Source: an uncultured Planctomycetia bacterium
GTDB taxonomy: Bacteria > Omnitrophota > Gorgyraeia > 2-02-FULL-51-18 > JAGOUK01
Direction: 5' to 3'
Length of the DNA stretch: 64,000 nucleotides
NCBI GenBank assembly: GCA_964430735.1
Contig: CAYSFB010000002.1
Coordinates: 94,027-158,026 of the forward strand
Part shown: positions 43,881 to 61,447 of the stretch, in pieces
Numbering within the stretch: position 1 is the first letter of the stretch
Layout: every line of letters begins with the position of its first letter
Notes under the pieces: generated by a model
Databases searched by the model: none
What the model saw: only the letters and a program-made list of their open reading frames with translations
What the model was told of the DNA's origin: nothing
Made by a program: the position numbers and the translations under genes

Positions 43881-43973
43881 ACACCCACACGCTATCATGC
43901 GAGTCAGTGTATGTCAACTTGTGATAAGTATTGTTTATTATGGATTAGAAGGATTTAACTCGGAAATGGGCGT

Positions 43974-47334: not shown

Positions 47335-48128
47335 GGCTTCGAGTGCGCCCCCCAAAACACGAACAGCATCAGCAGATAAAACGCCGCGCTGACGGACGCC
47401 ACGGTCCGGGAGCGGCCCCGGGCGCCAAAACGCATCCAGACCAAAAAGACATACAAAACCAGCATGAGCACCGACAGCGCCACGGTCGGGTCCCCAAAAA
47501 CGTCGGCGGGCCGGTCCAAGCCGCCCATGACCTTGGCTCCTCCGGCCACGCCCATCGCCAACGCCGCCGTTCCGACGGTCAGCGCCGCAAAATTGAGCCG
47601 GGCCGTCAGCTCGAGCGGCGGGAGCGTCGACAGATGCGCCGCGAGCGCGCGCTGCTTGATCATCCGGTCCTGAATCAAAAAGAGGGCAGAAAATATAAAG
47701 GAAAGCGTAAACGCGGCCAACGCCGTAAACATGCAAAAAACATGGCCTTTGAGCAGGCCTTCGAGCGCGGCTCCCGTGCCGAGACCGGCCGGTCCGCCCG
47801 CGCGGTACAGCGCCATCACTCCCAAGGCGAGGCTGACGGCGGACAGGATCGCCGAAGCCCAGCGGACGCGGACGAACAGGCGCACCGCGCCGTATGCAAC
47901 CGCGAGGATGCAGAGCGTGAGCAGCACGCCGTCAAAAAAATGAGCGGGCTGCCAGGACCCTTGAGCCCGCAAACGGCCGGTCAGAACGGCCGCCGTCATG
48001 AAGGCTCCGAGCGCGTAGCTGATCTTGGAGGCTAAATGGGCGTAGCGGAGCTCGGTCCGGCCGCCGGCCACCGCCAGCAAAAGACTCAGCAGGTAGAGGA
48101 AAAGGGAGAAGAGAAAAAAGCGTTCCAT
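47331..48128 (-). CDS. hemX: HemX-like / CcsA-family (cytochrome c assembly protein family) integral membrane protein
   Basis: 265 aa with 8 TM helices. The segment FTLSFIFSALFLIQDRMIKQRAL closely matches the corresponding B. subtilis HemX/CcsA-family segment. It is immediately upstream of hemA and translationally coupled to it, as in the Bacillus hemAX arrangement (here in the order X then A). Confidence 0.7.
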   Translation of the reverse strand: MERFFLFSLFLYLLSLLLAVAGGRTELRYAHLASKISYALGAFMTAAVLTGRLRAQGSWQPAHFFDGVLLTLCILAVAYGAVRLFVRVRWASAILSAVSLALGVMALYRAGGPAGLGTGAALEGLLKGHVFCMFTALAAFTLSFIFSALFLIQDRMIKQRALAAHLSTLPPLELTARLNFAALTVGTAALAMGVAGGAKVMGGLDRPADVFGDPTVALSVLMLVLYVFLVWMRFGARGRSRTVASVSAAFYLLMLFVFWGAHSKP

Positions 48129-48157: not shown

Positions 48158-51100
48158 TTAAGCAGACTGATACGCCACGCGGGCGCCGCGGACAAATTCC
48201 TCCAGGTAACGGGAAACATCGCCCTTGAATTCAAAGATTCCGATGCCGCCTTTCCACGAGACGCCCAAGATCAGGCCCTGATTTTCTTCATAACCCTTAT
48301 ACAGCACATGCATGCCGGCCTCCAGGAACCGAACCGTCGTTTTAGAATCCGGCGCAAGCGCCAGAATCCAGTTCCGGCGGGGCCCTTGCGGCGTTTCCGG
48401 GCGGAACGTGCCGGGATCCGGCAATAGATAGGCGGCCTTGCCCTGGATACGGCGGGCGGAATCGTATTCTGTGACCGACTCGACCGAATCTGCGCCGGGG
48501 GCGAAGATCACATTTTTTCCGTACCACTCCGTCTGCGGGTACTTCTGACGCAGGGCCTTCAGATTCGGAAGGGACGGGTCACGCACCAAAAGCACCTGTT
48601 CGAACTGGGCTGCCAGACGCTTGGCACGCTCGAGCCGGTAACGGAACGGCAGCCCTTCCTCGCCTTTTTTCCCGTCCTTGATGAAGACTTCGAGGTCCGT
48701 CACGATCGTTCTCGTATCCGTATTGTCAAAACGGAGCGGGTCCCGGTAGCTTCGGTCGATGACGGCGAGCCGCGAGCGGCGCAGACGGGCCGTCTGCCCA
48801 GCGATCAAGGACGCGCGTCTTTGGACCTCGGCTTCGGACAGGGCTGCGGCGGATTCTGCGCCGCCGGTCAGATAATCCGCGATCTTCCTGGAGATCGCAT
48901 TCAAACGGTTGACGGCTTCACCGGCTGAATCCTGACGCTCGGGCATCAGCGCCAGCGCCAGGCGCTCGTCGAGCAGTCCGGCCAATGTCGCGGGATCCAA
49001 ATCGGCGGCCTGGATGGAATCGATTTCGCCGGCCGGCGCGGCTAGCTCGGGAGCAAGCGTCGGTGCGCCGCCGGCGTTGCCGGCAAGGATCAGCCGCTTG
49101 GCCGGCGGCGGAATCGACCTGGCCAAAGCCATCACAAGCGCGGCCAGCTGCGCAGACGTCAGCTTGGCGGAATTCTCTCCGGAGAGAAGCTTTTCGGCAA
49201 AGGGCGTCACGATCCGCAGATCCGCCGCGTCTTGTTCCGCCAATTTGCCCAGGATGGCGGCGACGGCCTCGGGGCGCTTGACGGTGGAACGGTCCAACAT
49301 CAGGTCGATCCCCTCCAACGCATCCTCCCCTTCTCGGTTCCCGCGGAATTCCAAATCAGACTGTGAAAGGAAGCGGACGGTGATCCGGGAATTCAATCCG
49401 GGTGAATAAGGCGCGATCGACTCGAACGCGTCCTTCCACAACGCTTCGATATTGTCCTTGCTCTCGCCGGACCGGAGAATGCCGACCGTCAATTTGCCCG
49501 GAAGCCGGACCGCGACGGGCTCCGGAGATGCAGGAATCAAATAGGACGCCGCGAATTGCTTTCCGGCCAGACGCGCGCCCGAGGACGGCGCAGTCGAACG
49601 GGATTTTTGATCGAGTTCTTCGATCATCCGTTCCGCAGCAGCGGCTTCGGCCCGGACTCGAACCAGATTTTCTTCCAACGCTTGGAGCTCGCTTTGTTGT
49701 TCGGCCGCCCAGGCGTCGCGGGCCGCATCGGCTGCCTTGAGTAAAGGCGCCAGATCCGGCAGGGCCTGCGGGTTGACCGCCGGTTTTTTGAATCCGGGGA
49801 CCACGTAATACAACTCGTTGGGGTTTCCGGCTTGCATGGGTCCGGCCACCACGCAAAGCGTCTCACGCGGCAGGGTGAAGCCGCCATACCTGAAGTCGGT
49901 GCTGTTTTCCTTTTTGGCCACGCCGATGGCTTTGAGCGCTTTTTGATCCCATTTTTCGAACAGTTCGCCGATGGGGCGGACGCCGGCCATGTAGGAATGG
50001 TTGAATATGGCATAGTTCAGCGCGTAAGGATCGGTCGACAGGTGGCTCGTCATCCCCGAGATGAAGGGATGGCCGATCCATGCGGAGTCCTGCAGTGTGG
50101 AAACATACTTTTGGGCGGCGGCGTTGCTCTCGAATCCGGGAGCTGCGCGCAAACGGTCGATGATCGCCCGGCTCCGCGTGCGGAACTGGGCCAGACGCTC
50201 CCAGTCGGCGTCGAGGGTCCGCTGGGCTGCCAGGGTGACCGCCCGTTGAAGCGTTTCGCGGAGGCCGTCAGTCGCCGAAAAACGGATCGGCCTGACGTCG
50301 GCGGGACGTGAATTGTCAGGAAGGTACCCGATGTTTCCATTATTGACGACAAGACGCTCAGCAAGCTCTGAGGACGGGACCTGGGTCCAGACGCCGGTCT
50401 CCATCTGCGTCCACGCGGCCAGACCGGTCGAGGGCCGGACCTCCGCCTGAAACGACGCGAATCTGGATTCCAGCTCTTTTTGCTGATCGCGCAATTCGCC
50501 GAGTTTGGTGCGCTGCCCGATAATCTGCGCCTCTATTTCGGCTTTGCGGCGCAGAACCTCAGGATCTGCCTTCGGAGCGGCCGCAGGCGGATTCAAGGGT
50601 GGAAGCGGAGGAAGCGGTGTGGGCTCATCCTTCGCGGGCTGCATGGGCGTCGACACGGCAGGCGCCGGCGCGGCCGGAGCCGGTTCGACGGACAAAGACT
50701 GCGCGGCCTTGGGTACGTTCACAGGAACCTTTGGTAAATCTTGGGTGCGCTTGTAGAGCGTGACGCCTCCGTACACCGCCGCTCCCAAAAAGAAAAGGGT
50801 GAACGGCCGGCGCAGCACCGGCATCAGAACGCCGCTCCACAGCGGGTGCAGCAAAAACCAGGCGGCCGCCAACGCCGCGGAACCCGCCGCCTGCAGCGCA
50901 TGACCCCATAAAATCTGAGAAGTCGGGTGTGCGGACTCAGGAGAACCTGAAAAAGCGGCCGGCTCTTCGGCCGCCTCCTGCCGTTCGACCGTTGCCGTGG
51001 CCGCCGCACTTGCCGTTACCGCTTCGGCTGCCGCAGGCTCCGGCCGCTCCTCCGGCGCCGAACGGTGCAACAGCCCCGCGCCCGAACGGATCAGCTCGGC

Positions 51101-54100
51101 GCCGAACGTCAGAACGGCCCTCGCTTTGGGTTCACCCGGATTCGGATTGGGAGCGTACCCCGACGGACCGGTTTTGACCAAGCGCACGATCCTGACCGCC
51201 AACAGCGTTCCGAGCTCAACCACGAACAAGAACGCCGGCAGCCAGTACCACAACCACTGGGTCACCCGCCAATACTCCAAAAAGCTCAACAGCCTCATCT
51301 CCCAAACGCTGCCGCTCATCAATTCCCGGTAGCGCTCGGGGTTGACCTTCTTGAGGATCTTGCGCATGTAAATCTGCTGGGCGTGCGTTTGTCCCTCCTC
51401 ACGCTCGAGGGATTCCAGGACTGCCGGCTCCATATGCCCTTCAAGCGCGCCCGCCAGATGCTCGAGCAGCGCCTCGGCCGACGTCACCATCCGCTCGCGG
51501 TTGCCGTAGGGAAGCGCGTTCCAAAGCATGCGGGCGTCGTGCAGCGAACTCCAGTAGCGCCGGTTGATGTCGAACGCGCGCGAATCGCCGATCTGCGCGA
51601 GCACCCGGAGCGCCTGCAGCTGCACATACGGCTGTTCCGGCTGCGGCCGTTCCGTGTTGAAAATCCGCTCCCGGTACTTCCGCACTTCCTCCCATTCGGC
51701 AGGATCCTTCCAGAGGGTGCGCAGATCTTTTTCGATTTCTTCGCTCCCGACACCCAGCACGATTGACAGGAGGTGCAGCGCCTTCTGCTGGTTTTTGAGC
51801 GTGCCGAAGCCCCGCACGATGTCAACGCGCGAATCGATGTCTTCGTTCGAGAAGGTGTTCAGCGACTGCAGCATGTCCAGAATTTTTGGGTCACGCGCGT
51901 TCGCATCCCCATTCACCGTAAAATACCCGAGCGCCGCCGCGGCCCGGGACCGGACAGTCGGATCGGAGTCGTGGATCAGCCAGCGCACGTATTTTTCGTA
52001 TCTCGGGTTGCCCGAAGCTCCAAGCTTCCAAGCCGCGTACGCGCGGACCGGAGGGTTCGGGTCGGTAATCACGGGAATCAGGCCCTCCAAGCGGCCCGAC
52101 ACGACCGCGGCCTCAAATGCAGCCTTGCGCTCAGCATCCTCATCCGAACGGATGGGAAAAACCGCCGCTCCGCGACCGCGGTCGCGTCGCTGGTACTCCT
52201 GCAGCGTCCAACGCTGGGACGCATGGTTGTCGTAGTCGTGGGCATCGGACTCAAAGCCGAAGTCCGGGAGCGGCGTCGGCACGGTGTGATTGTAAATTTC
52301 CTGGATCGGGGCACCCAGGTCCGACAGCAGATCGTGAAGGGCGGCGGCGGTCGGCGTCCCGCGGTACATCATCCGGTCGGCCTCGCGGCCGCTCCCCGGC
52401 TGCCTGCCGGCCGGATCATCGCCGCGCCACACATCCATGAGTTTGGGCAAGGCCGCGGGTCCGACTCCGCGCAGGGCATCGTCGATGGCGCGCAGATAGT
52501 TCATATAAGCGCGGGCCTTTTCGGGAGTGTGCAGGTCGTCCCGCGTAAACTGATCGTCAAGTCCTTCGTACAGATGGCACAGCGGGTTGACGAGCCGGAT
52601 ATCGCCGCGGTGATTCTGCGTCATAAAGCCGATCAGCCGGATCCTCGCTTCCATCGCGATCGGCTTGTGGTCCAGCAGCCGGAACAGGATCGAGATCCGC
52701 TCCTCCTCGAGCTCCTGGAGGCGCGTCTTGAACTCGGTCATCTTGGCCTCGTACTCGGCAGTCATGTCGATCTTGGTTCTCATGTAATGGTGGTATTCCT
52801 CCGCCGAAGCCGCGCCCTTCTGGTAGATGCTGCGGAGGGCTTCTTCGAATTGCCAGGTATGCTTTGTCTTGGATTGGAAGCTGGCAAAGAACTCCGCATC
52901 GTAATTGGTCCTTTCGGCTTCGATCAGCCGGTACCGGCTGCTCCACTGCTTGAGAAACGGCGTCAACACCGACTTGATCGCGCTGTCCGCCAGGTCTCCG
53001 TCGATCATCGCGGTCAACTGCGCGTCGTAGCGGGCCCGAACCTCCGGCTTGGACAGATCCGGCCGCGCGGCTTCGGTCTGTGACGGCGCGGGGCCGGCAG
53101 CCGGAGCGCTGGGCGTGATGGCGGCGGAATTCCCTGCAAAACCCTGCCGCGGAGGAAAAGTCAGGGTGATCTCGCCTCCGGGATTGAGCCGTTGTTCGAG
53201 CGCGCCGAACGGCTTGTCCGAAAACGTTTCCGGGTGGAACCACGCGTATCCGCCCGTAAACAGGAGGAGGGTCCACAACACCGCGTGGCGCGCGGTTCTG
53301 AATATCTGGCCCGCAAAATCAAGCAGCGGGTTGTGATACTCTGCCATCCGCGCTCCGGAAGCAGACCGCATGCCGGCCGGCGGTTCGAGTTCTTTGAGTT
53401 TTTGAGCCGCTTCTTCGAGATCGGCCTCCAGTATCTTCAGCGCTTCCTTCTGCCGCTCAAGCTCCTGCTGCCGGCTGTTGACTTCGGACTCCAGCTGACG
53501 GATTTTTTCTTCCATCGGGACACGGACCGCCTTGGCTTCCGACGCTTCTTTCCCTTCCCAGGCGGCCTTGTCCAACGCGGTCCAGGGATCGCCGCCGCTG
53601 ATCGCCACTCCCAGTTTCACTTCATACAGCGCGGGTTGTTTGTTGCGGTTGAGGATCAAAACCGGCGTGTCAGGCGCCAAATCCACCGGCAGGGATCCGG
53701 CTTCCCGGGACGCGGGCAATGTAAAAAGCTTGCGCGCGGAATCAAAGACAAGCCCAAGTGATTCCCGCTGCTCAGCGGCCAACCGCTCGACCGGACGGAT
53801 CCGGGTCAACGGATGATCCGCGAAGCCCTGGAACATTTCGGCAACGGTGTAGGTCCGGGGCGCCGGCATCCCGAGTTCATGGATGGTTCCGTTGTTCAAG
53901 ATGTGGTGTTTGACTTCCTCGAGCGCCTTTTCGACGCGGACCCGGCGCTCGGCCGCATCCTTCGTCCGCTCGTCGGTCCACCGGGTCAGCGATGCCTGGG
54001 CGGACCGCAGCTCTTCCCGCTTGCGGTTCAAACCGGTTTCGGCCTCTATGACCATGACTTCCTGTAAAAAGCGCTGGTTGTCCAGATCCGCCTGCCGAAG

Positions 54101-57100
54101 CCGCCATTTCTCGATTTCGGGGTTGGCGCGGACCGGTTCCGCCTTCGGCTGGACGGGATCAGCGTGCGGTGCCGGGGCCGGTGCGGCCGGCTGAACACCT
54201 GCAGCGGGCGCGGCGGGCGCGTCCGGCATCTCCGCTGAGCGCGGCAATAATCCGTAAAACGCCAGTGCTGCGGTCAAGCCCGCGGCCCAACGCACGGCAG
54301 GACGCCGCATCATGGTCGACGCGATCCAGCCGACCCAATAAATTGCGCCGACGAGCGCCAACCCCGCGACCGCCAGAAGCGCCCGGATGGTTCCGGCGCT
54401 CAGTCGGTCGGGTCCCTTGTCAGCGGCGGAATCCGGGCGTGCGGCCGGTGCCGACGACCGTGCCGATGCGGCCGGAGCCGGAGCGGACTGGACGGACGGC
54501 TTGTCGTCAGCAGCTGGGTTGGACGCTTCATCCCCTGGAATGATTTGCGCCAAAAAGGTGTCGGCTCCGCCGGAAAGCGGCGCGGGATTCAGCAGCCCGT
54601 TTTCCGATTCAAAAAACCGGCCGAGCCCTTGAGGGTCATCAAGATTCAGCGAACCGGCCGTTTTCCTGGAACCAGGATTTGAGCGCTTCATGGACGGCAG
54701 ATAGCGGGACGGATCATCGGAAGGCCGCATGATAAACGGTTCAGGACCCTGAGCCGGCGAAACCGATGGGGAAGCAAAAGAATTATCGATCGGCGCAGGC
54801 GCTGGAACGGCGGGACCTGACGCGCCGTTGGCTGCGTTTCGCGTCTGGGCGGATTGAAAGTCCTGTATCTGCCTGTCGATCTGCGCCTGGGATTCCTGAC
54901 GCATTTGGTCGTATACGGCGTTCAGCGCGTCCAAATATTCCTGCAGCGCCGGATTATCGGCGGGATTGGGAGCCGGGGTTGGAGTCGGAGCCGGTTGCTG
55001 CGCGGCCGCCGATCCGGCGGCGGCCAGGCCGAGTAAAACGGCGAGCGAGCCGGCTGTAACCATCTGACGCATCCGCCGGAGGAGACCGCTGCCGCGGGAC
55101 GGCGCGTGGGCGCGGAGCAGCACGGCCAATTGATCGGACGACAGACCCGAGGCTTTGACCGCAAACAAGGGGTTTCCGTTCTCGCGGACAATGAGTTGGG
55201 GCGTCGATCCGGACACATTCCATTCCGCGCGCCATTCACGCGTCTCATCTTTGACGCCCTGGTATCCGTCGCCCGCCGGCTCCAGCAGATAATCCCGCGT
55301 TTCCCCGTCCTCCTCAGTGGTGATCAGAATGAACCCGTTGTCCTGAATTTGAACGAGCGCCTGGGAAGGCATTTCTTCCGGAACCGAATCGGCGGAAGGA
55401 GCGTTCGGGTTCCGGTAACTCATCGTCGGAAGACTCGTCGAACCGGCGCCGACGGGATGCTGGGTGGATTGGGTCTTCGCCTCATTCACGGTGTTCCCCG
55501 GCTCGAAGGCGCGCTGCACTCCCAACACCCGCGCCAGACCGGTGCCGATGCGTTTGCCGAAAAGGGTTTGAAGGTGTTTTTCAAAAACCCCGGAAATAAG
55601 CGACGCCTGCCGGTAACCGATCCACATTTCCGCAACGATTCCGTCGCTCAGATCCAGAAGGAAACGGTTGATCCAGTCAAGCCCGTACCGGCTGAGCCGG
55701 CCGTTGTACTTCGCGCGCAGAGGACCCATATGATCGGAAAGGATCGTGAGCGGAGGCGAATCGGGACGGATCTGGCGTTTGGAAAACGCCGAACCCTCGC
55801 GGACCTTGATGTGCGCCTGGGGCCGGCCGTAGTTGAATTCGATTCCGCCGATCTGACCGAGCACGGTGTTGGCGTCCTGGGCCTCTAACGCGACTTCCTC
55901 TCCCAGCCGTTCGTCGGTGATCCGGTGGATCGTGACCACGCCGCGGTGCGAGACGATGCCGAACCGGTGCAGAGCCCCGCGCACGATATCCGCGCCCCAC
56001 GTGATCGGGGTCAAAAACGAAAACGCCAGTGAGAAAAGCGTCGCGTTGTACCGGTCGACGATGCTTGCGACGGGCCCCCGGTCGATGAACACCTCGGGCT
56101 TGGGTCCCATGCGGTCGAACAGCGGCCGGCCGTGCGAAGTCCGGATCACCAAATGCCCGATCCACAGCGCGAAAAGCGCAAAAACGCCGTTGAGCGCTCC
56201 GATCACGTGCGCCGGAACCCAGGGCATCAAAAAGCTGAACGCGCCCCAGCCGATCGTGGAACTCACAATCACATACAGCGCGAACGGAACATAGGCGTCC
56301 ACCCACTCGGTCACATTGTCCGCACGGTAACGGGCGGCCGATTCGAGAACGGCCAGCTGCGGGGATTCCGTACGCGCGTCGGCCGACGTGACGCCCACCC
56401 GTTCCGGCAGTTCCAGACCGTAACTGACCTGCTGGAACGCGCGGAAGCCGCGCAGGTCCTGGCGGCTGATCTCTTCTTGAAGGCCGAAAGGCCGCCGGCC
56501 GGTCTCCTCGTGGATGGTCACGAGTTCGTCCATGATCCCCATGAAGATTTCTGTGAGCGCGGCCTTCGTCGCGGCGACTTCAACCGTCGCCGCCTCGTTC
56601 CAGCGCATCCGGTACTTGCCCTCCCGCGTCAGGTGCGAAAGCGTCTGGAACGTGATCGGCAGCACGGGGTCCCCCGGCATGTACCCCTGCCCCGCCGCTT
56701 CGCTCGCGGCGTTGAAGAGCTGCTGCGACACGGTGATCACACGGCCGGGGTTCGCGACCGTCGCGCGCGGCGCGTTTTGGAACTTGCGGGCCAGATGATT
56801 GGCGACAAGCACCGACTGCGTCTGGGCGGAGGTGCTCACGCCGATCACGATAGTCTTGTCATTGATGCCGCGGGTCTTCAACCCCCGGTTTTTCTGGTTC
56901 TGGGCGCGCTTCAAAAACCGGATGAACTGTCCCGAATTCATTTTGACGATGTTCAGGTGCGGCGCTGCGTCGCGCATCAGCTGGATCTGCTGGTCGAGCA
57001 GCTCCTCGTTATGGTCGACTCCGTGAAAAATGAGGTCGTACGCGCCCGATTGATCTTCATCGCCGTCAACCTTGCCCGCGCGTGCCTGCGCCTTGTCGCG

Positions 57101-60100
57101 GATCAGCCGGCGAAGGTACTGCATCGGCGCGTGGTTGCGTTTGCCCGGACGGACGGAATCCCGGACAGCGGCGGCGACGTACGGGATGTCGCGGAGGTTG
57201 TGCTTCAATTCGTCCATGTTGGCCCAATCCGCTCCCGGAGAGGGCACGTCGATTTTTTGATTGCCGTGCACCGGAAACCACGGGTTTTCACCGCGCGGGT
57301 CCTGCAGCCGGTTTGGAGCATCTTCCTGCACGTCATAGATGCGGACCGTGTTCGAATCGGCTCCGTACGTCACTTTTTCAGCGGCCAATTCCACGAGCGC
57401 GTATTGGCCGCTGCGCAGCATGACCTGCCGCGCGTCGTCTTCCAGGCGGCCCGTGGCCAAAGCGGAGGTCACCCCCATCGGCTCGGCGCTGCCGACGATC
57501 TCGCCGCGGGCTGGATTCACGCCGATCGAGAACGACTGCGTGTAATTGTAGATACCGACCCGGCGTTCGAGCGTCGTCACGACCTGAAGCGCGAACGTGC
57601 CCTCGAATTCCCGGGCGATGCTGGCCATCACCCACTGCAGACTGTGGTCAAAAAATGCCTCTTCGGCCAACTGCACGAATTCCTCCAGCCGGTCCGCGGG
57701 AATTTCCCGTCCGACGCGGCGGCGTACGATCGCCCGGAAATCCTCACGGACTTCCGGCAGCGCGCCGGACAGATCCGCCGCTCCCGGAGCAAGGATTTGC
57801 GCGGCCGTACGTCCCAGAAGCCGCGCGACGTCGCCTTCGATCCGCGACTCCCATCCGTCAAACGGCGGGCGCTTGAACTTTCCATCGACAACATCCTCGA
57901 AGTTGGGAACGCGCGAGAACCAGGCATGACGCAGCGATTTGCCCAGCAAGCCCTGAGTGAGATTAAAGTCCACATACTCGGCGGTCGTCTTGGAATCGGA
58001 ATCGCCCTTCGAACTCGATCGTGGCATGGCGTTCACGAAAAACGCGCGCGCGTGGCGCCGGCTGCTGGAATCGTTCTGGATGATGGTCCGTGTCTCGAGG
58101 ACTCCGCCGAATCGGAGCTTCATGCGCACCGCGTCCATGTCGCCGTTGTGTTCGTTCATGTTGGCGACAACAAGTTTTTCGGCGGACACGGCCCGAGTCG
58201 CGTTCGACAGATCGACCTTAAAATGTTTGAGCAATACGGGGTCCTCGTGCCAGACCGGCTGCGCGTTGTGCCAATGGGTCGCGCCGATCGTCGCGTACCG
58301 CAGGTGGATGAAGATGGCCTCAAAGCGCTTCAGCGCGCGATAACCCTTGGCGGTCACCGCCTCTAAAAAAGTGTTGAGGTTCTGCGCCAGAACATCCACG
58401 ATCTTGCGGCGCTTGCCCTTGACCAGTTTGTCGAACAGCAGATTCACCGATTTTCCGATCTGCGCGAACATCACGTATCCGGCCGACTGTCCGCCGCGGG
58501 TGGACGCGTGACGGGAGAGGATGTTCGAAAGTTCGAGCGTCCTTCCGCTGAGAACGGAGACGCTCTTTTCGCCGGCCGGGCGAAGGCGGATCACAAAGTA
58601 CGGTCCACAGGCGGAGGCTCCGCCGCCGCCGAAGATCACGCCCAGATCCGGCAGCGAAACAGCCGTGAGGGCCGAAACCGCAGCCACCGAATAAGCCGCA
58701 AAATTGAGGAAGGAGTGCCCTAAACCCGAAAAATCGGAGGCCCAACCGCTCACCGCCGCGGCGGCGGCCATCGTGGCCGTGTTGAAGGCGATTCCTCCGA
58801 GCGCCGTCCAGCGCCTGGCTGGACCGCCGGCAATTTTTTCCAGGGAAACGACGGAGGCCAGGGCCTGCGGCACCGGAGCGAACGGAATCAGAGATGCTCC
58901 GACGTCACCCCAGGAAACCCCTTCACGGATAAAGTCCGACGAAGCGACCGGCGCACCGACCGTCGCGGCGTTCAGAGCATGGCCGGAGCCATGCGCCAAA
59001 AAGGCGGCGGCGTTCACGGCTCTGAAAAAAACCGCCAATCCCAGTACGAGCGGCCACCCCTGCGGCAGAAGAAAAACGGCGGAGCCGAATGACACGGCAA
59101 CTGCCGCGGCGGCGGCTTCCGGCAAAGCGCGGCGGATCAGGCCATTCCATACACCGGATGCCATACGCGCGGCGGCTGCCGGGAGCGGGCTTTTCTTTGC
59201 GGCCGGCGGCGGGAATTGGTTCAGATAGGCTTCGACGTCCGCGTCGCCCTCCTGGACCGTTCGCAGCTTGAGTGATCCGGCAGGCCGGGGAGCGGATTTT
59301 TTGGGAGCCGCGTGTGACGCTGCTGCAGCGGGCGGCGGGCGTCGGTCAGAAAGACGCCGTGCGGCGGGCGGACCTTCTTTGGATGTGTCGGGCTGCAAAA
59401 GCGCCGGCCGGATGAAAACCGGGTTCAAGCGCGTCGTGTCGATCTGAACGGCCTTCGGCAAACCGGCGATTTCTCCCTTCGGCGTCACCGGCACCTGCAG
59501 TTCGGCGCCGTCTCCGAAGGTGACCGCGTAAGCGGGTCCGGAGGGCGTTCCTATTTTTTGGACGCGCCGGATGCCGCCGAGCTCCCGCCGGACTTTTTCC
59601 GGCGAAACGCCGGTTCTCCCGGAATGCTTCCAGGCGCGCTCCAGCTGTTGCAAATAGGGGTCCGAATTTTCGCTTTTCAGCAGGTCCGCGCCGACCAGCC
59701 GCGCGCTCACAGCCAGAAGCGCTACGGTCTCGCGTAAATTGGCCTGCTGTCCCAGCCACTCGGGCGTAAAACGCTCCAGCGGCGCCGAAAGCGTGAACCG
59801 GCTGCCATCGAGCTGTTCGCGGATCTGCGAGGGGCGGCGTGTGAGAAGCGTCAGATACGGGCGTTCGCCGTCCTTCGGATCGAACTTGGGCATGATAACC
59901 AGGTGCGACACCTGGCCGTCCTTCATCAGCTGTGATAAGCCCTCGGAGTGGAACCCTCCGGTCACGAGTGCTGCCGTGCGCACGCCGTCCTGACGCATTT
60001 TTTTGAGCGTGTTCTCGAGCAGCATCCGGTCGCGTCGGATCGCCAATTGATAAAAGCGTCTCGCATCCGGCAACGCGCGGACCAGCCGGCGCTCGTCCTC

Positions 60101-61447
60101 CGCCGTGAGCGGCAGTCCGGCCGAAACATCCAAGCGCCGGACGGTATCGATCCAGCGGCTTCCGGCATTGTCCCTGAACCAGGACCGGACCCGGACATAC
60201 TCGGGATGACTCAGCTTGAGGCCGACCAGCTTCCGGATCAGCCCGAATTGCCGGGCGGCATCGAGCAATGCTTTTTCATCGGCGGTCTTCGCCAAACGGT
60301 TCTCGACGTTCTCCTGCCATTCGGCGATTTGAGTAATGAGCTCTGCGAGCTGGATGCGCTCATACAGGAAGACGTACCGCGCATACAAGGCCAACTGGGG
60401 ATAGCGGGTGATCCGGACACCCGCGCTGCGTGCCGTGCGAATCAGGAAGTTGTGGAACTCTGCGGTCGACGCCTTGCCGCGGCGGTACTGAAGCGTCTTC
60501 CATGCCAGGTGGCGGGCGCGCCGGGAGTCTAGCGTCTGTGCCAGCACGCGGAACAGCATTTCGCGTTCCTGGGCGGCTTGGGAAAAAGCAATGCGTTCTT
60601 CGATCGCGGCCGTGCGCTGCCATTTGCGGATCTCGCCAAAACCGTCCGGCCGGATGCCGGCAGGCGCGGCGGCGCCGGTCAGGCGTTTCCAGGACTTGCG
60701 CGAGTAATCGGCGTGCTCGATCCAGCGGCGGGCCTGAGCGCGGAATACCCGAAGCGGCCTCGAAAAAACACGGGCTTCCAATTTGTTCAGATAGGCATCC
60801 ACTGCCTGCATCGGCTCCGCCAGCCGCGTCTGACGGACGGCAACCCTGCGAAACGCCTGAAGGTTGCGGCGATAGAGCGTCTCTTCTTCTGCGCCGTACA
60901 GCGCGACGTTCCTGCCGGTATCAGTGATAATCGAAAAATATTCGCCGGCGGAGATCTGCCCGCTCTTCAACAGGAACTCACCTGTCTTTTTACGCGCTTC
61001 AGGACTCGGCAAACTCGAAACCACCGACGTATCGACCGTACCGCCCGCGCCTTCCAGCGCGACCATCCCGAGACCATAGCGCTGCGTCAGCTCTTCGAGG
61101 ATCGAGGCGATGCCGTATTGCGCGCCCATTTGATTGTGGGCGTCCTGGATATTGATGACGATCTCACCGCCCTGGCCGCCGCTCTGACGAACCACCTCGC
61201 CCAAACGGCGGGGAAACTCAAACGGCTTGGCTGCCGGCGCAGCCCACAAAATATCCTGCATCAGCATGGCGGCGACCAACGTGAGTGCGGTCAGGCGCAG
61301 GGCTGCGGGGAACGAGCTTTGCTTCACGCTTGGCTTTGCCCAAAGGTTCTTGAATGATTTGAAGTTCAGGCAAAAGAGATCCCGGTGGGTTTTGCCGGTG
61401 GCTGCTCCTTCGGCTGGAGGAAGCGGGGTCGGTATTTCGTGCGACAT
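48158..61447 (-). CDS. Giant (4429 aa) polytopic membrane multidomain protein (giant B). From the N-terminus: a signal-anchor; a Tiki/TraB/ChaN/erythromycin-esterase-like domain (aa ~90-530); a TM bundle (aa ~785-940); a class-II glutamine amidotransferase (Ntn)-like domain starting at Cys947, plus a SIS-like segment (GlmS-like module, aa ~947-1600); further TM segments; coiled coils; and PBS-lyase-type HEAT-like repeats
   Basis: ATG 61447 with AAGGA 10 nt upstream. Motifs IVINIQDAHNQMGAQYGIASILEELTQRYGLGMVALEGAGG and AALVTGGFHSEG are the His, Glu, His of the Tiki/TraB/ChaN/erythromycin-esterase fold. ...GGGGASACGPYFV...HLRYATIGATHWHNAQP...VVANMNEHNGDMD matches the GltS/GlmS-type Ntn amidotransferase signatures (CG..F, H.R[FY][AS]T...AQP, HNGEI). 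KTIVIGVSTSAQTQSVLVANHL...VITVSQQ resembles a SIS domain. DPNPPVRAYAAWKLG...DSDPTVRSRAAAALGYF are HEAT-like repeats. There are at least 12 hydrophobic TM segments. Confidence 0.85.
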   Translation of the reverse strand: MSHEIPTPLPPAEGAATGKTHRDLFCLNFKSFKNLWAKPSVKQSSFPAALRLTALTLVAAMLMQDILWAAPAAKPFEFPRRLGEVVRQSGGQGGEIVINIQDAHNQMGAQYGIASILEELTQRYGLGMVALEGAGGTVDTSVVSSLPSPEARKKTGEFLLKSGQISAGEYFSIITDTGRNVALYGAEEETLYRRNLQAFRRVAVRQTRLAEPMQAVDAYLNKLEARVFSRPLRVFRAQARRWIEHADYSRKSWKRLTGAAAPAGIRPDGFGEIRKWQRTAAIEERIAFSQAAQEREMLFRVLAQTLDSRRARHLAWKTLQYRRGKASTAEFHNFLIRTARSAGVRITRYPQLALYARYVFLYERIQLAELITQIAEWQENVENRLAKTADEKALLDAARQFGLIRKLVGLKLSHPEYVRVRSWFRDNAGSRWIDTVRRLDVSAGLPLTAEDERRLVRALPDARRFYQLAIRRDRMLLENTLKKMRQDGVRTAALVTGGFHSEGLSQLMKDGQVSHLVIMPKFDPKDGERPYLTLLTRRPSQIREQLDGSRFTLSAPLERFTPEWLGQQANLRETVALLAVSARLVGADLLKSENSDPYLQQLERAWKHSGRTGVSPEKVRRELGGIRRVQKIGTPSGPAYAVTFGDGAELQVPVTPKGEIAGLPKAVQIDTTRLNPVFIRPALLQPDTSKEGPPAARRLSDRRPPPAAAASHAAPKKSAPRPAGSLKLRTVQEGDADVEAYLNQFPPPAAKKSPLPAAAARMASGVWNGLIRRALPEAAAAAVAVSFGSAVFLLPQGWPLVLGLAVFFRAVNAAAFLAHGSGHALNAATVGAPVASSDFIREGVSWGDVGASLIPFAPVPQALASVVSLEKIAGGPARRWTALGGIAFNTATMAAAAAVSGWASDFSGLGHSFLNFAAYSVAAVSALTAVSLPDLGVIFGGGGASACGPYFVIRLRPAGEKSVSVLSGRTLELSNILSRHASTRGGQSAGYVMFAQIGKSVNLLFDKLVKGKRRKIVDVLAQNLNTFLEAVTAKGYRALKRFEAIFIHLRYATIGATHWHNAQPVWHEDPVLLKHFKVDLSNATRAVSAEKLVVANMNEHNGDMDAVRMKLRFGGVLETRTIIQNDSSSRRHARAFFVNAMPRSSSKGDSDSKTTAEYVDFNLTQGLLGKSLRHAWFSRVPNFEDVVDGKFKRPPFDGWESRIEGDVARLLGRTAAQILAPGAADLSGALPEVREDFRAIVRRRVGREIPADRLEEFVQLAEEAFFDHSLQWVMASIAREFEGTFALQVVTTLERRVGIYNYTQSFSIGVNPARGEIVGSAEPMGVTSALATGRLEDDARQVMLRSGQYALVELAAEKVTYGADSNTVRIYDVQEDAPNRLQDPRGENPWFPVHGNQKIDVPSPGADWANMDELKHNLRDIPYVAAAVRDSVRPGKRNHAPMQYLRRLIRDKAQARAGKVDGDEDQSGAYDLIFHGVDHNEELLDQQIQLMRDAAPHLNIVKMNSGQFIRFLKRAQNQKNRGLKTRGINDKTIVIGVSTSAQTQSVLVANHLARKFQNAPRATVANPGRVITVSQQLFNAASEAAGQGYMPGDPVLPITFQTLSHLTREGKYRMRWNEAATVEVAATKAALTEIFMGIMDELVTIHEETGRRPFGLQEEISRQDLRGFRAFQQVSYGLELPERVGVTSADARTESPQLAVLESAARYRADNVTEWVDAYVPFALYVIVSSTIGWGAFSFLMPWVPAHVIGALNGVFALFALWIGHLVIRTSHGRPLFDRMGPKPEVFIDRGPVASIVDRYNATLFSLAFSFLTPITWGADIVRGALHRFGIVSHRGVVTIHRITDERLGEEVALEAQDANTVLGQIGGIEFNYGRPQAHIKVREGSAFSKRQIRPDSPPLTILSDHMGPLRAKYNGRLSRYGLDWINRFLLDLSDGIVAEMWIGYRQASLISGVFEKHLQTLFGKRIGTGLARVLGVQRAFEPGNTVNEAKTQSTQHPVGAGSTSLPTMSYRNPNAPSADSVPEEMPSQALVQIQDNGFILITTEEDGETRDYLLEPAGDGYQGVKDETREWRAEWNVSGSTPQLIVRENGNPLFAVKASGLSSDQLAVLLRAHAPSRGSGLLRRMRQMVTAGSLAVLLGLAAAGSAAAQQPAPTPTPAPNPADNPALQEYLDALNAVYDQMRQESQAQIDRQIQDFQSAQTRNAANGASGPAVPAPAPIDNSFASPSVSPAQGPEPFIMRPSDDPSRYLPSMKRSNPGSRKTAGSLNLDDPQGLGRFFESENGLLNPAPLSGGADTFLAQIIPGDEASNPAADDKPSVQSAPAPAASARSSAPAARPDSAADKGPDRLSAGTIRALLAVAGLALVGAIYWVGWIASTMMRRPAVRWAAGLTAALAFYGLLPRSAEMPDAPAAPAAGVQPAAPAPAPHADPVQPKAEPVRANPEIEKWRLRQADLDNQRFLQEVMVIEAETGLNRKREELRSAQASLTRWTDERTKDAAERRVRVEKALEEVKHHILNNGTIHELGMPAPRTYTVAEMFQGFADHPLTRIRPVERLAAEQRESLGLVFDSARKLFTLPASREAGSLPVDLAPDTPVLILNRNKQPALYEVKLGVAISGGDPWTALDKAAWEGKEASEAKAVRVPMEEKIRQLESEVNSRQQELERQKEALKILEADLEEAAQKLKELEPPAGMRSASGARMAEYHNPLLDFAGQIFRTARHAVLWTLLLFTGGYAWFHPETFSDKPFGALEQRLNPGGEITLTFPPRQGFAGNSAAITPSAPAAGPAPSQTEAARPDLSKPEVRARYDAQLTAMIDGDLADSAIKSVLTPFLKQWSSRYRLIEAERTNYDAEFFASFQSKTKHTWQFEEALRSIYQKGAASAEEYHHYMRTKIDMTAEYEAKMTEFKTRLQELEEERISILFRLLDHKPIAMEARIRLIGFMTQNHRGDIRLVNPLCHLYEGLDDQFTRDDLHTPEKARAYMNYLRAIDDALRGVGPAALPKLMDVWRGDDPAGRQPGSGREADRMMYRGTPTAAALHDLLSDLGAPIQEIYNHTVPTPLPDFGFESDAHDYDNHASQRWTLQEYQRRDRGRGAAVFPIRSDEDAERKAAFEAAVVSGRLEGLIPVITDPNPPVRAYAAWKLGASGNPRYEKYVRWLIHDSDPTVRSRAAAALGYFTVNGDANARDPKILDMLQSLNTFSNEDIDSRVDIVRGFGTLKNQQKALHLLSIVLGVGSEEIEKDLRTLWKDPAEWEEVRKYRERIFNTERPQPEQPYVQLQALRVLAQIGDSRAFDINRRYWSSLHDARMLWNALPYGNRERMVTSAEALLEHLAGALEGHMEPAVLESLEREEGQTHAQQIYMRKILKKVNPERYRELMSGSVWEMRLLSFLEYWRVTQWLWYWLPAFLFVVELGTLLAVRIVRLVKTGPSGYAPNPNPGEPKARAVLTFGAELIRSGAGLLHRSAPEERPEPAAAEAVTASAAATATVERQEAAEEPAAFSGSPESAHPTSQILWGHALQAAGSAALAAAWFLLHPLWSGVLMPVLRRPFTLFFLGAAVYGGVTLYKRTQDLPKVPVNVPKAAQSLSVEPAPAAPAPAVSTPMQPAKDEPTPLPPLPPLNPPAAAPKADPEVLRRKAEIEAQIIGQRTKLGELRDQQKELESRFASFQAEVRPSTGLAAWTQMETGVWTQVPSSELAERLVVNNGNIGYLPDNSRPADVRPIRFSATDGLRETLQRAVTLAAQRTLDADWERLAQFRTRSRAIIDRLRAAPGFESNAAAQKYVSTLQDSAWIGHPFISGMTSHLSTDPYALNYAIFNHSYMAGVRPIGELFEKWDQKALKAIGVAKKENSTDFRYGGFTLPRETLCVVAGPMQAGNPNELYYVVPGFKKPAVNPQALPDLAPLLKAADAARDAWAAEQQSELQALEENLVRVRAEAAAAERMIEELDQKSRSTAPSSGARLAGKQFAASYLIPASPEPVAVRLPGKLTVGILRSGESKDNIEALWKDAFESIAPYSPGLNSRITVRFLSQSDLEFRGNREGEDALEGIDLMLDRSTVKRPEAVAAILGKLAEQDAADLRIVTPFAEKLLSGENSAKLTSAQLAALVMALARSIPPPAKRLILAGNAGGAPTLAPELAAPAGEIDSIQAADLDPATLAGLLDERLALALMPERQDSAGEAVNRLNAISRKIADYLTGGAESAAALSEAEVQRRASLIAGQTARLRRSRLAVIDRSYRDPLRFDNTDTRTIVTDLEVFIKDGKKGEEGLPFRYRLERAKRLAAQFEQVLLVRDPSLPNLKALRQKYPQTEWYGKNVIFAPGADSVESVTEYDSARRIQGKAAYLLPDPGTFRPETPQGPRRNWILALAPDSKTTVRFLEAGMHVLYKGYEENQGLILGVSWKGGIGIFEFKGDVSRYLEEFVRGARVAYQSA

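What the first reader, a model, noticed from the sequence alone, without database searches (positions are those of the whole stretch)
56650..58609. A GlmS-like module (Ntn glutamine amidotransferase + SIS-like) is buried inside giant B directly after a TM bundle, with the nucleophile Cys internal (GGGGASA|CGPYF)
From aa 947 the sequence shows class-II GATase signatures in the right order: CGPYF (compare CGI/CGVGF), HLRYATIGATHWHNAQP (compare H.RFSTNT...AQPF), and VVANMNEHNGDMD (compare HNGEINT). A GlmS-like C-terminal GATase half follows (GTFALQVV...ALVELAAEKVTY). After that comes a SIS-like GxSxxS / ITVSQ segment at aa ~1530-1600. In free enzymes the Cys is residue 1, after Met removal. Here it is at position 947, preceded by a Gly-rich linker at the exit of a ~150-aa TM bundle. 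So either the domain is a non-catalytic relic, or the protein undergoes Ntn-type autoproteolysis at Ala946|Cys947. That cleavage would separate the Tiki-like head plus membrane anchor from the ~3,480-aa remainder. An amidotransferase/sugar-isomerase module in a giant envelope protein would be a new context for this chemistry.
Basis: inference. Interest (0 to 1): 0.75.

Follow-up and report, generated by a model that had tools for sequence, protein, structure and literature searches.

The report
Membrane-embedded GlmS-like amidotransferase behind protease-like domain
The giant protein really does contain a glutamine-amidotransferase plus sugar-phosphate-binding module like the enzyme GlmS, and its catalytic cysteine always sits about 13 residues after a membrane domain resembling site-2 proteases; this arrangement recurs in a large, unstudied protein family and suggests the enzyme must be cut to become active.

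Summary
Giant B (48158-61447, minus strand, 4429 aa) carries a class-II (Ntn) glutamine amidotransferase domain at aa 947-~1375 and one SIS domain at aa ~1471-1650. Pfam, NCBIfam and PDB sequence searches miss them. An AlphaFold model (pLDDT 81) matches human GFAT-1 and E. coli GlmS over ~750-790 alignment columns (Foldseek E 1.6e-11). A family profile aligns Cys947 to GlmS Cys1 (hhalign E 3.9e-6). Cys1, Arg26, Arg73, Thr76, Asn98-Gly99 and Asp123 equivalents are invariant in 28 homologues and near-invariant in ~100 cluster representatives, so a relic is unlikely.

- Its Asp ligand lies 12-18 residues before the Cys throughout the family.
- The module is not unique: 208 cluster representatives match (Omnitrophota-type giants, Methylococcales, cyanobacteria, Chromatiaceae), and none has an N-terminal Cys.

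Giant B also fuses what Methylococcales encode as adjacent genes.

Cleavage at Ala946|Cys947 is inferred, not shown. I rate this a new variant of known kinds; interest 0.72.

The parts
48158..61447 (-). Giant B ORF, 4429 aa, uninterrupted; host of the module
   Evidence: The identical protein is on 3 contigs from NCBI and Logan assemblies.
58610..59134 (-). Site-2-protease (M50)-like transmembrane domain, aa 772-946
58979..58993 (-). H819-G-S-G-H823: metal-ligand motif, HExxH with Glu replaced by Gly
   Evidence: His residues 68/72 and 72/73 conserved. Family split: HGxxH 44, HExxH 29, NExxH 6.
58922..58924 (-). Glu842 ('LEG' loop): candidate relocated catalytic Glu
   Evidence: Covaries with loss of the HExxH Glu: 48 (G,E) + 20 (E,non-E) of 72. 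Independent reversions in P0018/P0042 and P0235. Inference only.
58781..58798 (-). GGIAFN (G885, N889), equivalent to the S2P 'AGPxxN' helix
   Evidence: G 82/85, N 54/84. Aligned to GGPLFN of Aquifex RseP.
58646..58657 (-). S931-L-P-D934: putative third metal ligand Asp, 13 residues before Cys947
   Evidence: D 73/88. Asp-to-Cys spacing is 12-18, mode 14, in 71 sequences.
58610..58630 (-). Gly-rich linker GGGGASA (aa 940-946), ending at the putative scissile bond Ala946|Cys947
   Evidence: Predicted disordered (pLDDT <50 at model residues 1-8; low at the end of the TM model).
58607..58609 (-). Cys947 codon: equivalent of the Ntn nucleophile Cys1 of GlmS
   Evidence: Invariant in 28/28 and 95/98 family representatives. 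Aligned to GlmS Cys1.
57323..58609 (-). Class-II (Ntn) glutamine amidotransferase domain, aa 947-~1375, with a helical insertion at about aa 1180-1280
   Evidence: Residue map: R984=R26, R1050=R73, T1053=T76, N1101/G1102=N98/G99, D1151=D123.
57038..57322 (-). Linker with two long helices, aa 1376-1470
   Evidence: Secondary structure of the AF2 model.
56498..57037 (-). SIS (sugar-isomerase-type phosphosugar-binding) domain, aa ~1471-1650
   Evidence: Five-strand alpha/beta pattern in the model. Foldseek hits to the GFAT/GlmS isomerase part and to MurQ, HI0754 and MurR. hhalign to GlmS 335-365.
56819..56836 (-). S1538-T-S-A-Q-T1543: SIS phosphate-binding loop (SxSxxT)
   Evidence: Family consensus SQSGQT versus GlmS SQSGET.
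56141..56287 (-). Transmembrane hairpin, aa 1721-1769; would keep the C-terminal fragment in the membrane after cleavage
   Evidence: Hydropathy. Conserved through the family to HMM position ~1083.
55445..56125 (-). Highly conserved C-terminal domain of the module, aa 1775-2001 (RYNATLFS, HRGVVTIHR, GGIxFN, QSTxHPV); fold unknown
   Evidence: No similarity to GlmS by hhalign. No Pfam hit.
51143..53263 (-). Region homologous to the separate HEAT-repeat membrane protein that follows the module gene in Methylococcales (aa 2729-3435)
   Evidence: BLASTP E 3e-31. Pfam HEAT_2 at aa 3121-3191. Synteny in 12 loci with enough downstream flank.

Best explanation
Aa 772-~2119 of giant B form one copy of a conserved, uncharacterised membrane module with five parts in order:
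- a three-helix site-2-protease (M50)-like domain;
- a 12-18-residue junction;
- a class-II Ntn glutamine amidotransferase domain whose nucleophile is Cys947;
- one SIS phosphosugar-binding domain;
- a TM hairpin followed by a conserved C-terminal domain.

Shown: the folds, the homologies, the conservation of the full glutaminase residue set, the fixed spacing, and the recurrence of the architecture.

Inferred:
- The GATase-SIS part faces the cytoplasm, by analogy with RseP topology.
- The precursor is cut at Ala946|Cys947, because a class-II GATase needs the free alpha-amino group of Cys1 as its general base.
- After cutting, both pieces stay in the membrane. The 946-aa head plus S2P-like part is held by its own helices. 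The 3483-aa remainder is held by the hairpin at aa 1721-1769 and later helices.
- The freed Cys hydrolyses glutamine, and the ammonia is passed to an acceptor, probably a phosphosugar, bound at the SIS domain, as in GlmS.

Whether the cut is autocatalytic, as in PurF and GltS, or made in cis by the adjacent metalloprotease-like site is open.
For: GATase + SIS:
- Foldseek top hits are GFAT-1 and GlmS over ~750-790 alignment columns (E 1.6e-11), then PurF, AsnB and SIS-only proteins, from a confident model.
- hhalign of the family profile against GlmS gives prob 87%, E 3.9e-6, with Cys aligned to Cys1.
- The only PDB sequence hits of the broad family profile are E. coli GlmS and Aquifex RseP.
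- The catalytic set is invariant in 28 homologues. In ~100 cluster representatives: Cys 95/98, R-G-x-Q-x-x-G 124-126/126, H-x-R-x-x-T 126-127/127, N-G-D 120-121/121, D-S 106/108.
- SIS loop SxSxxT.

S2P-like domain:
- Pfam M50 is above threshold in P0204 and is hit in 8/38 members.
- NCBI names P0191 'zinc metalloprotease'.
- An in-register weak hit to Aquifex RseP.

Need for cleavage:
- The Cys is never N-terminal in 95 representatives, and the preceding residue is never Met.
- No start codon precedes it.
- Class-II GATases have Cys preceded by a few residues that are autocatalytically removed (PMC9140057).
- The junction is predicted disordered.

Asp-to-Cys spacing is fixed at 12-18.

The module is a self-contained unit:
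- Standalone ~1250-1350-aa versions occur in Methylococcales, cyanobacteria and Chromatiaceae.
- Those outside Methylococcales have unrelated neighbours.
Against: - No direct evidence of cleavage or of glutaminase activity.
- The window protein lacks the HExxH Glu (HGSGH), so a canonical metalloprotease mechanism is not available here.
- Only one SIS subdomain is recognised, whereas GlmS has two. Equivalents of GlmS Lys485, Glu488, His504 and Lys603 were not found, so the acceptor chemistry is unknown.
- His77, His86 and the channel-gating Trp74 of GlmS are replaced (G/I, Q, Y).
- Pfam GATase and SIS models do not reach threshold on any member.
- The cytoplasmic orientation is inferred, and an extra hydrophobic helix (aa 774-794) makes the topology of giant B ambiguous.
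Confidence: 0.55

Rival explanations
1. Uncleaved sensor. The family are site-2-type intramembrane proteases. Their C-terminal cytoplasmic GlmS-like module is a ligand-binding regulatory domain that senses glutamine and/or an amino-sugar phosphate. It would play the role that the CBS domain plays in SpoIVFB and the PDZ domains play in RseP. The Cys is never exposed and no amidotransfer occurs. In giant B the protease part would be degenerate and the module would serve as a scaffold or sensor.
For: - The M50-like domain is detectable, and many members keep an intact HExxH (29 HExxH + 6 NExxH of 88).
- A regulatory domain placed C-terminal to the S2P core is a known layout (own knowledge of SpoIVFB and RseP).
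- In Methylococcales the gene sits beside P-II and ammonium-transporter genes, which fits nitrogen sensing.
- The second SIS half and the GlmS isomerase residues are not detected.
Against: - Sensor domains derived from enzymes usually lose the nucleophile and oxyanion hole. Here Cys-Gly (95/98, 97/98) and Asn-Gly (121/121) are the best-conserved positions.
- The fixed 12-18-residue spacing between the metal-ligand Asp and the Cys is not explained by a sensor role.
- No candidate substrate, such as an anti-sigma factor, is conserved nearby.
Confidence: 0.22
2. Protease-gated zymogen. The adjacent S2P-like site, not the Cys itself, cuts the X|Cys bond in cis. The amidotransferase would then be a zymogen unmasked by its own fused intramembrane metalloprotease. 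In HGxxH members such as giant B, the general-base Glu has moved to the 'LEG' loop (Glu842).
For: - The fusion is constant, and the Asp-to-Cys spacing is narrow (mode 14, 48/71).
- The Glu is mutually exclusive between the HExxH position and the LEG loop (68 of 72). Independent back-switches occur in P0018/P0042 and P0235. This argues the metal site is under selection for catalysis even in HGxxH members.
- The residue before the Cys varies, which fits loose S2P specificity.
Against: - Class-II GATases with propeptides are known to self-process (PMC9140057), so no protease is needed.
- The covariation rests on a few clades, and it fails in the Chromatiaceae clade, where HGxxH members lack the aligned Glu.
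- Two representatives (P0056, P0087) seem to have a 59-89-aa leader without an S2P-like domain.
- No 3D check of the distance between the scissile bond and the metal site was possible.
Confidence: 0.18
3. Non-catalytic relic. A decayed GlmS-like fold is kept only as a structural spacer in a giant envelope protein.
For: Sequence divergence is so large that Pfam, NCBIfam and PDB sequence searches miss it. The GATase domain carries a ~100-aa insertion.
Against: Every glutaminase catalytic and binding residue, and the SIS phosphate loop, are conserved across lineages as distant as Omnitrophota-type giants, Methylococcales, cyanobacteria and Chromatiaceae.
Confidence: 0.04

Closest known systems
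GlmS / GFAT (glutamine--fructose-6-phosphate amidotransferase; MEROPS C44 Ntn GATase + SIS)
   Same: - Same domain order, Ntn GATase then SIS.
- Best structural match over ~750-790 alignment columns.
- Equivalents of Cys1, Arg26, Arg73, Thr76, Asn98-Gly99 and Asp123 are conserved.
- SIS SxSGxT loop.
   Different: - The Cys is residue 947, not residue 1.
- The protein is membrane-integrated.
- Only one SIS subdomain is found before a TM hairpin.
- No detectable equivalents of Lys485, Glu488, His504 or Lys603.
- Trp74 becomes Tyr and His86 becomes Gln.
- A ~100-aa helical insert sits in the GATase domain.
- About 10% identity, below the Pfam thresholds.
PurF (B. subtilis) and glutamate synthase GltS/GltB: class-II GATases made with a propeptide
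   Same: The nucleophile Cys is not the first encoded residue and must be unmasked. Unmasking is autocatalytic in these enzymes (PMC9140057). PurF is also a structural hit (1ao0, 1gph).
   Different: Known propeptides are 'a few amino acids' (about 11 in B. subtilis PurF, own knowledge). Here the preceding part is a ~170-aa folded membrane domain, or 946 aa in giant B. The acceptor domain also differs (PRTase or synthase versus SIS).
Site-2 proteases, family M50 (RseP, SpoIVFB, M. jannaschii S2P)
   Same: - A three-helix core with HxxxH in the first helix, a G-G/P-x-x-N helix, and Asp in the third.
- Pfam M50 hits in family members.
- A soluble domain follows the core, as with the CBS domain of SpoIVFB (own knowledge).
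   Different: - Giant B has HGSGH, with no catalytic Glu in the motif.
- The canonical NxxPxxxLDG is reduced to S-x-(P/S/T)-D.
- There is no PDZ or CBS domain.
- It is fused at fixed spacing to an Ntn nucleophile, which is not described for any M50 protease in the literature searched.
Two-chain Ntn hydrolases (penicillin G acylase, gamma-glutamyltranspeptidase, glycosylasparaginase)
   Same: An internal nucleophile is exposed by intramolecular cleavage of a long precursor, and the two chains stay together afterwards (PMC9140057, and own knowledge).
   Different: Those enzymes use Ser or Thr, are soluble, and are hydrolases without an acceptor domain. No protease-like domain precedes the nucleophile.

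Membership tests
Class-II (Ntn, PurF-type) glutamine amidotransferase domain | Four-layer alpha-beta-beta-alpha Ntn fold | tested here: met
   AF2 model pLDDT 81. Foldseek prob 1.0 to GFAT-1, GlmS, PurF, AsnB, beta-lactam synthetase and PA 1te5.
Class-II (Ntn, PurF-type) glutamine amidotransferase domain | Nucleophile Cys at the position of Cys1, at the start of the first beta-strand | tested here: met
   hhalign aligns the family Cys to GlmS Cys1. The strand starts 2 residues after Cys947. Cys is conserved 28/28 and 95/98.
Class-II (Ntn, PurF-type) glutamine amidotransferase domain | Cys is the N-terminal residue of the mature chain (free alpha-amine) | not testable with these tools
   In the gene it is residue 947 with no start codon before it. 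Maturation needs protein chemistry to establish.
Class-II (Ntn, PurF-type) glutamine amidotransferase domain | Oxyanion hole Asn-Gly and glutamine-binding Arg73/Thr76/Asp123 (GlmS numbering) | tested here: met
   N1101-G1102, R1050, T1053 and D1151 are invariant.
Class-II (Ntn, PurF-type) glutamine amidotransferase domain | Match to Pfam GATase_2/4/6/7 above the gathering score | tested here: not met
   No hit for the window at E<=10. GATase_2 is sub-threshold in 2/28 homologues (E 0.0033). None in 38 broader members.
GlmS/GFAT orthologue (GlcN6P synthase) | Two SIS subdomains following the GATase domain | tested here: not met
   One SIS (aa ~1471-1650) is found. The domain after the TM hairpin shows no similarity to GlmS by hhalign. 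Its structure was not modelled.
GlmS/GFAT orthologue (GlcN6P synthase) | Isomerase catalytic residues Lys485, Glu488, His504, Lys603 | tested here: inconclusive
   No aligned equivalents were found. There is only an eyeball resemblance of 'YVSKLFSLSY' and 'LLHxFGH' to the GlmS 481-506 region.
GlmS/GFAT orthologue (GlcN6P synthase) | SIS phosphate loop S-x-S-G-x-T | tested here: met
   Window STSAQT (aa 1538-1543). Family consensus SQSGQT aligned to GlmS SQSGET.
Site-2 protease / peptidase family M50 | HExxH in a transmembrane helix | tested here: not met
   The window has HGSGH. In the family: HGxxH 44, HExxH 29, NExxH 6 of 88 full-length representatives.
Site-2 protease / peptidase family M50 | Third metal ligand Asp in a later transmembrane helix | tested here: met
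   D934 in S-L-P-D; Asp is 73/88 conserved. The full NxxPxxxLDG motif is not present.
Site-2 protease / peptidase family M50 | S2P core fold | tested here: inconclusive
Site-2 protease / peptidase family M50 | Match to Pfam PF02163 above the gathering score | tested here: inconclusive
   Not met for the window. Met by family member P0204 (27.5 vs 27.2 bits, E 2.3e-6). 8/38 members hit at E<=0.05. P0204 is tied to the window family at E 8e-49 across the TM domain.

The most novel reading that the evidence does not exclude
The fused site-2-protease-like domain is an active intramembrane metalloprotease. In HGxxH members its catalytic Glu has migrated from HExxH to the 'LEG' loop (Glu842 here). 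Its substrate is its own polypeptide: it cuts the X|Cys bond 12-18 residues after its Asp ligand and so unmasks the Ntn nucleophile. This would be the first amidotransferase zymogen activated by a built-in, potentially regulated, intramembrane protease. It would split giant B into a 946-aa head piece and a 3483-aa enzyme-bearing piece.
Probability: 0.2. Interest if true: 0.9.

Novelty: new variant of a known kind. Interest (0 to 1): 0.72.

Why it matters
Class-II amidotransferases and site-2 proteases are both textbook families, but they have not been described together in the literature I could search. Here they are welded at a fixed spacing in hundreds of protein clusters from Omnitrophota-type giants, methanotrophs, cyanobacteria and purple sulfur bacteria, and none of these proteins has been studied.

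If the Cys is unmasked by cleavage, this is an Ntn enzyme with by far the largest known 'propeptide', and possibly one gated by intramembrane proteolysis. If it is not cleaved, it is a new metabolite-sensing domain for S2P proteases. Either outcome is directly testable in cultivable Methylococcus or in cyanobacteria.

The result also assigns folds to about 1,350 residues of an otherwise Pfam-dark 4,429-aa protein. It shows that this giant is a fusion of genes that lie side by side in Methylococcales, which gives a handle on how such giants are assembled.

Tried and rejected
Searches that led nowhere:
- Pfam and NCBIfam on the whole giant, and Pfam on aa 940-1900 down to E<=10, gave only HEAT_2. 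PDB phmmer, and a profile of the 28 close homologues, gave no hits.
- hhalign of the shallow alignment against GlmS gave prob 2% although the register was right. It needed the deeper family profile.
- The first representative-library job failed because the profile exceeded 1200 positions.
- Foldseek of the TM model against the PDB returned only Dps-like and other generic helical bundles at E>1. hhalign of the TM profile against E. coli RseP aligned only the 8-residue HxxxH motif.
- The C-terminal domain (aa 1775-2001) as a second SIS half: hhalign found nothing with either the close or the broad alignment. This is left as an untested lead.
- Pfam on three other giants and nine mid-size members found nothing except one weak M50 hit.
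- Literature searches for such a fusion found none.

Ideas rejected:
- Internal translation start before the Cys: rejected, because the preceding codons are GGA GCC TCC GCC.
- Internal repeats in giant B, or similarity between giants A and B: none by BLASTP.
- A paralogue of the module in giant A: none.
- Conserved gene neighbourhood outside Methylococcales: the cyanobacterial, Thiocapsa and Celeribacter contexts are unrelated to each other.

Not resolved:
- Organism of the window. The closest giant relative belongs to a Candidatus Omnitrophota MAG, so that phylum is only a guess.

Full report
**1. The observation**

Giant B is the uninterrupted ORF 48158..61447 on the minus strand, 4429 aa. 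The identical protein is recorded on three contigs from two sources. Residue N maps to nt 61447-3(N-1).

Direct searches do not see the domains:
- Pfam on the whole protein gives only HEAT_2 at aa 3121-3191.
- NCBIfam gives nothing.
- Pfam on aa 940-1900 and its halves gives nothing even at E<=10.
- phmmer against PDB sequences gives nothing.

**2. Homologues and conservation**

A search with aa 940-1900 found 29 proteins. Almost all are ~1340-aa standalone proteins of Methylococcaceae, at 36-41% identity over 98% of the query. One is named by NCBI 'class II glutamine amidotransferase domain-containing protein'. They align with giant B aa ~775-2119.

Residues invariant in all 28 aligned sequences:
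- the Cys-Gly-Pro of ACGPxF;
- R-G-G-Q-S-x-G;
- H-L-R-Y-A-T-x-G-A-T-H-W-x-N-x-Q-P;
- H-N-G-D;
- S-D-S.

**3. Fold**

An AlphaFold2 model of aa 940-1720 built on that alignment is confident (mean pLDDT 81.3, pTM 0.83). Foldseek against the PDB gave these matches:

| Match | Result |
|---|---|
| Human GFAT-1 (6r4i and others) | E 1.6e-11, probability 1.0, ~750-790 alignment columns |
| E. coli GlmS (2j6h, 1jxa, 3ooj) | next in the list |
| PurF, beta-lactam synthetase, asparagine synthetases | Ntn GATase hits |
| MurQ, HI0754, MurR | SIS-only proteins |

The module is thus a GATase-II domain (aa 947-~1375, with a helical insertion at about aa 1180-1280). Two linker helices follow, then one five-stranded SIS domain (aa ~1471-1650), then long helices leading into a TM hairpin at aa 1721-1769.

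**4. Sequence-level proof and residue map**

A profile of the TM bundle plus GATase (alignment A3) was searched against 1.84 billion cluster representatives. It found 208 proteins at E<=1e-3 and 87 at E<=1e-10.

With 74 of these, hhalign against E. coli GlmS gives probability 87% and E 3.9e-6. The alignment starts exactly at Cys aligned to Cys1. The shallow alignment had given the same register but no significance.

Residue map, using GlmS numbering:

| GlmS residue | Giant B |
|---|---|
| Cys1 | C947 |
| Arg26 | R984 |
| Arg73 | R1050 |
| Thr76 | T1053 |
| Asn98-Gly99 | N1101-G1102 |
| Asp123 | D1151 |
| Trp74 | Tyr |
| His77 | Gly/Ile |
| His86 | Gln |

Conservation across ~100-127 family domains:
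- Cys 95/98, and the following Gly 97/98;
- Arg and Gly of the R26 motif, 125-126/126;
- His-x-Arg-x-x-Thr, 126-127/127;
- Asn-Gly-Asp, 120-121/121;
- Asp-Ser, 106/108.

A relic is therefore very unlikely.

In the SIS domain the family consensus 'TIVLaiSQSGQTFxTL' aligns with GlmS 'LMITLSQSGETADTL' (S347-T352). The window version is S1538-T-S-A-Q-T1543.

The broad family profile against all PDB sequences returns only E. coli GlmS (E 0.14) and Aquifex RseP (E 1.9). Each is weak alone, but they are exactly the two predicted families and nothing else.

**5. The TM bundle is site-2-protease-like**

The ~170 residues before the Cys carry H-G-x-G-H-A, R-x-x-A-x-G-G-x-x-x-N and S-x-P-D. These resemble the HExxH, AGPxxN and LDG motifs of M50 proteases. 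Evidence:

- Weak Pfam Peptidase_M50 hits in one of the 28 close homologues and in P0075.
- The only PDB sequence hit of the TM profile is the Aquifex RseP orthologue, in register (E 0.28).
- The AF2 model of aa 770-960 is confident (pLDDT 87.8).
  - Foldseek finds nothing significant.
- A search from the HExxH-type member P0075 found a clade in Chromatiaceae, Celeribacter and cyanobacteria.
  - In it NCBI names one protein 'zinc metalloprotease'.
  - P0204 passes Pfam's M50 gathering score (27.5 vs 27.2 bits, E 2.3e-6).
  - 8 of 38 members hit M50 at E<=0.05.
  - P0204 matches the HMM built from the window and its close homologues in one stretch covering the TM domain through the hairpin (E 8e-49).

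I take the S2P/M50 relationship as established for the family. The window copy is a divergent member with HGSGH.

**6. Family-wide rules**

Among 95 cluster representatives that contain the Cys:
- The Cys is never at the N-terminus. The few low positions are contig-truncated fragments or, in two cases, leaders of 59-89 aa.
- The residue before it is Y, A, C, H or F, never Met.
- Upstream, at 98-177 residues (median 125-133), lies HGxxH (44), HExxH (29) or NExxH (6).
- The distance from the putative Asp ligand to the Cys is 12-18 residues, with mode 14 in 48 of 71. It is 13 in giant B.

A second pattern concerns the catalytic Glu.
- Members with HGxxH have a Glu in a 'L-E-G/H/N' loop about 20 residues downstream (Glu842 here). 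Members with HExxH do not: 48 + 20 of 72 obey 'one Glu only'.
- Back-switches occur inside otherwise HG clades. P0018 and P0042 in the Methylococcales clade have HE(A/T)GH with ILT(P/Q). P0235 in the cyanobacterial clade has HELGH with ILK.
- This suggests relocation of the general base and continued selection on the metal site.
- The rule fails in the Chromatiaceae clade, and the number of independent events is small. I treat it as a lead.

**7. Context**

- In all 12 Methylococcales loci with enough downstream flank (L002, L003 and ten of L005-L015), the module gene is followed by an 819-aa HEAT_2 membrane protein. A TolC-like OEP gene comes next. P-II and ammonium-transporter genes are usually adjacent.
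- Giant B aa 2729-3435 is homologous to that HEAT protein (E 3e-31). Giant B therefore fuses genes that are adjacent and separate in Methylococcales. No OEP, P-II or Amt homologue lies in the window.
- The N-terminal head (aa ~50-630) is shared with about 33 other giants of 1,200-5,100 aa. In them the HMM match runs head-less from the S2P-like domain to the hairpin.
- The nearest giant (P0036, E 4e-153) clusters with a Candidatus Omnitrophota MAG protein. A mid-size member clusters with the cyanobacterium Stanieria.
- In cyanobacteria, Thiocapsa and Celeribacter the ~1250-aa protein has unrelated neighbours. The module therefore looks self-contained.
- I found no paper describing the fusion.

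**8. Mechanism**

Established knowledge: class-II amidotransferases are Ntn hydrolases. Their Cys1 thiol is activated by its own free alpha-amino group, and encoded leader residues are removed autocatalytically (PMC9140057).

Given an intact catalytic set, an internal Cys, no start codon and a disordered junction, the most economical reading has four parts. All four are inference.
- The precursor is cut at Ala946|Cys947.
- The two pieces remain membrane-anchored, the C-terminal one by the hairpin at aa 1721-1769.
- The freed Cys hydrolyses glutamine.
- The ammonia goes to an acceptor at the SIS domain.

The cytoplasmic location of the module follows from RseP-like topology: N-terminus out, HxxxH near the inner face, and the 'ARRW' positive charges before the second helix. 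An extra hydrophobic helix at aa 774-794 leaves this ambiguous.

The acceptor chemistry is unknown. Only one SIS half is seen, and GlmS's Lys485, Glu488, His504 and Lys603 have no detected equivalents.

My probabilities:

| Reading | Probability |
|---|---|
| Cleaved and catalytically active | ~0.55, about a third of it through cis action of the S2P-like site |
| Uncleaved sensor domain of an S2P-type protease | ~0.22 |
| Relic | ~0.04 |

In the structured report sections the cis-cleavage reading is also listed as a stand-alone rival, so those figures overlap.

**9. Verdict**

It is not a GlmS orthologue, and in this copy not a canonical M50 protease. I file it as a new variant built from known kinds, interest 0.72.

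Noticed in passing
window 51143-53263 (-), giant B aa 2729-3435; loci L002, L003 and L005-L015: This part of giant B is homologous to the separate 819-aa HEAT-repeat membrane protein that follows the GATase-SIS gene in every Methylococcales locus with enough downstream flank. There the cassette continues with a TolC-like OEP gene. Giant B thus fuses what Methylococcales encode as adjacent separate genes.
   Followed up: partly
L002 18177-19838; L006, L007, L008, L010, L011, L012, L015: In Methylococcales the cassette is usually flanked by P-II (glnK-like) and ammonium-transporter genes, sometimes with the cassette lying between them. This hints at a nitrogen-related role. No such genes are in the window.
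   Followed up: partly
window 58922-58924 (Glu842) and 58979-58993 (HGSGH), minus strand: The Glu of HExxH and a Glu in a loop ~20 residues downstream are almost mutually exclusive across the family (68 of 72). Back-switches occur in two clades. This looks like migration of a catalytic residue, but the pattern fails in the Chromatiaceae clade.
   Followed up: partly
window 59557-61300 (-), giant B aa ~50-630: The N-terminal head after a signal-peptide-like segment (aa 47-70) is conserved in about 33 other giant proteins of the family (24-35% identity). It has no Pfam match.
   Followed up: partly
window 55445-56125 (-), giant B aa 1775-2001: This is the most conserved stretch of the module (RYNATLFS, HRGVVTIHR, GGIxFNxGxPQ, QSTxHPV), and its fold is unknown. 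In the broader family its motifs 'YVSKLFSLSYGIA' and 'LLHxFGH' look by eye like GlmS 481-506 (second SIS half), but hhalign gives no support.
   Followed up: partly
window 32841-43898 (-): A second giant ORF (3685 aa) lies 4.3 kb downstream of giant B on the same strand. It has no Pfam hit, no similarity to giant B and no copy of the module.
   Followed up: partly
window 19888-24444 (-) and 26333-29812 (-): Two further large ORFs on the same strand. One is a 1518-aa protein with a C-terminal subtilase (Peptidase_S8) domain. The other is a 1159-aa protein with no Pfam hit.
   Followed up: no
proteins P0245, P0246: A family member is recorded from the charophyte alga Closterium sp. NIES-68 (2065 aa, partial; HEWCH ... 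CGNFG). The family may therefore reach eukaryotic algae, or the record may be contaminated.
   Followed up: no
alignment A1, last columns: Nearly all standalone Methylococcales homologues end in Ala-Ala (often AAA, EAA or NVA) at the C-terminus. In giant B the chain instead continues into a TM helix (aa 2129-2149).
   Followed up: no
window 46279-48128 (-): The mechanical ORFs for the hemA-like and ccsA-like genes overlap by about 400 nt. The public gene call uses a shorter hemA (351 aa), so the long TTG-started ORF is probably an over-extension.
   Followed up: no
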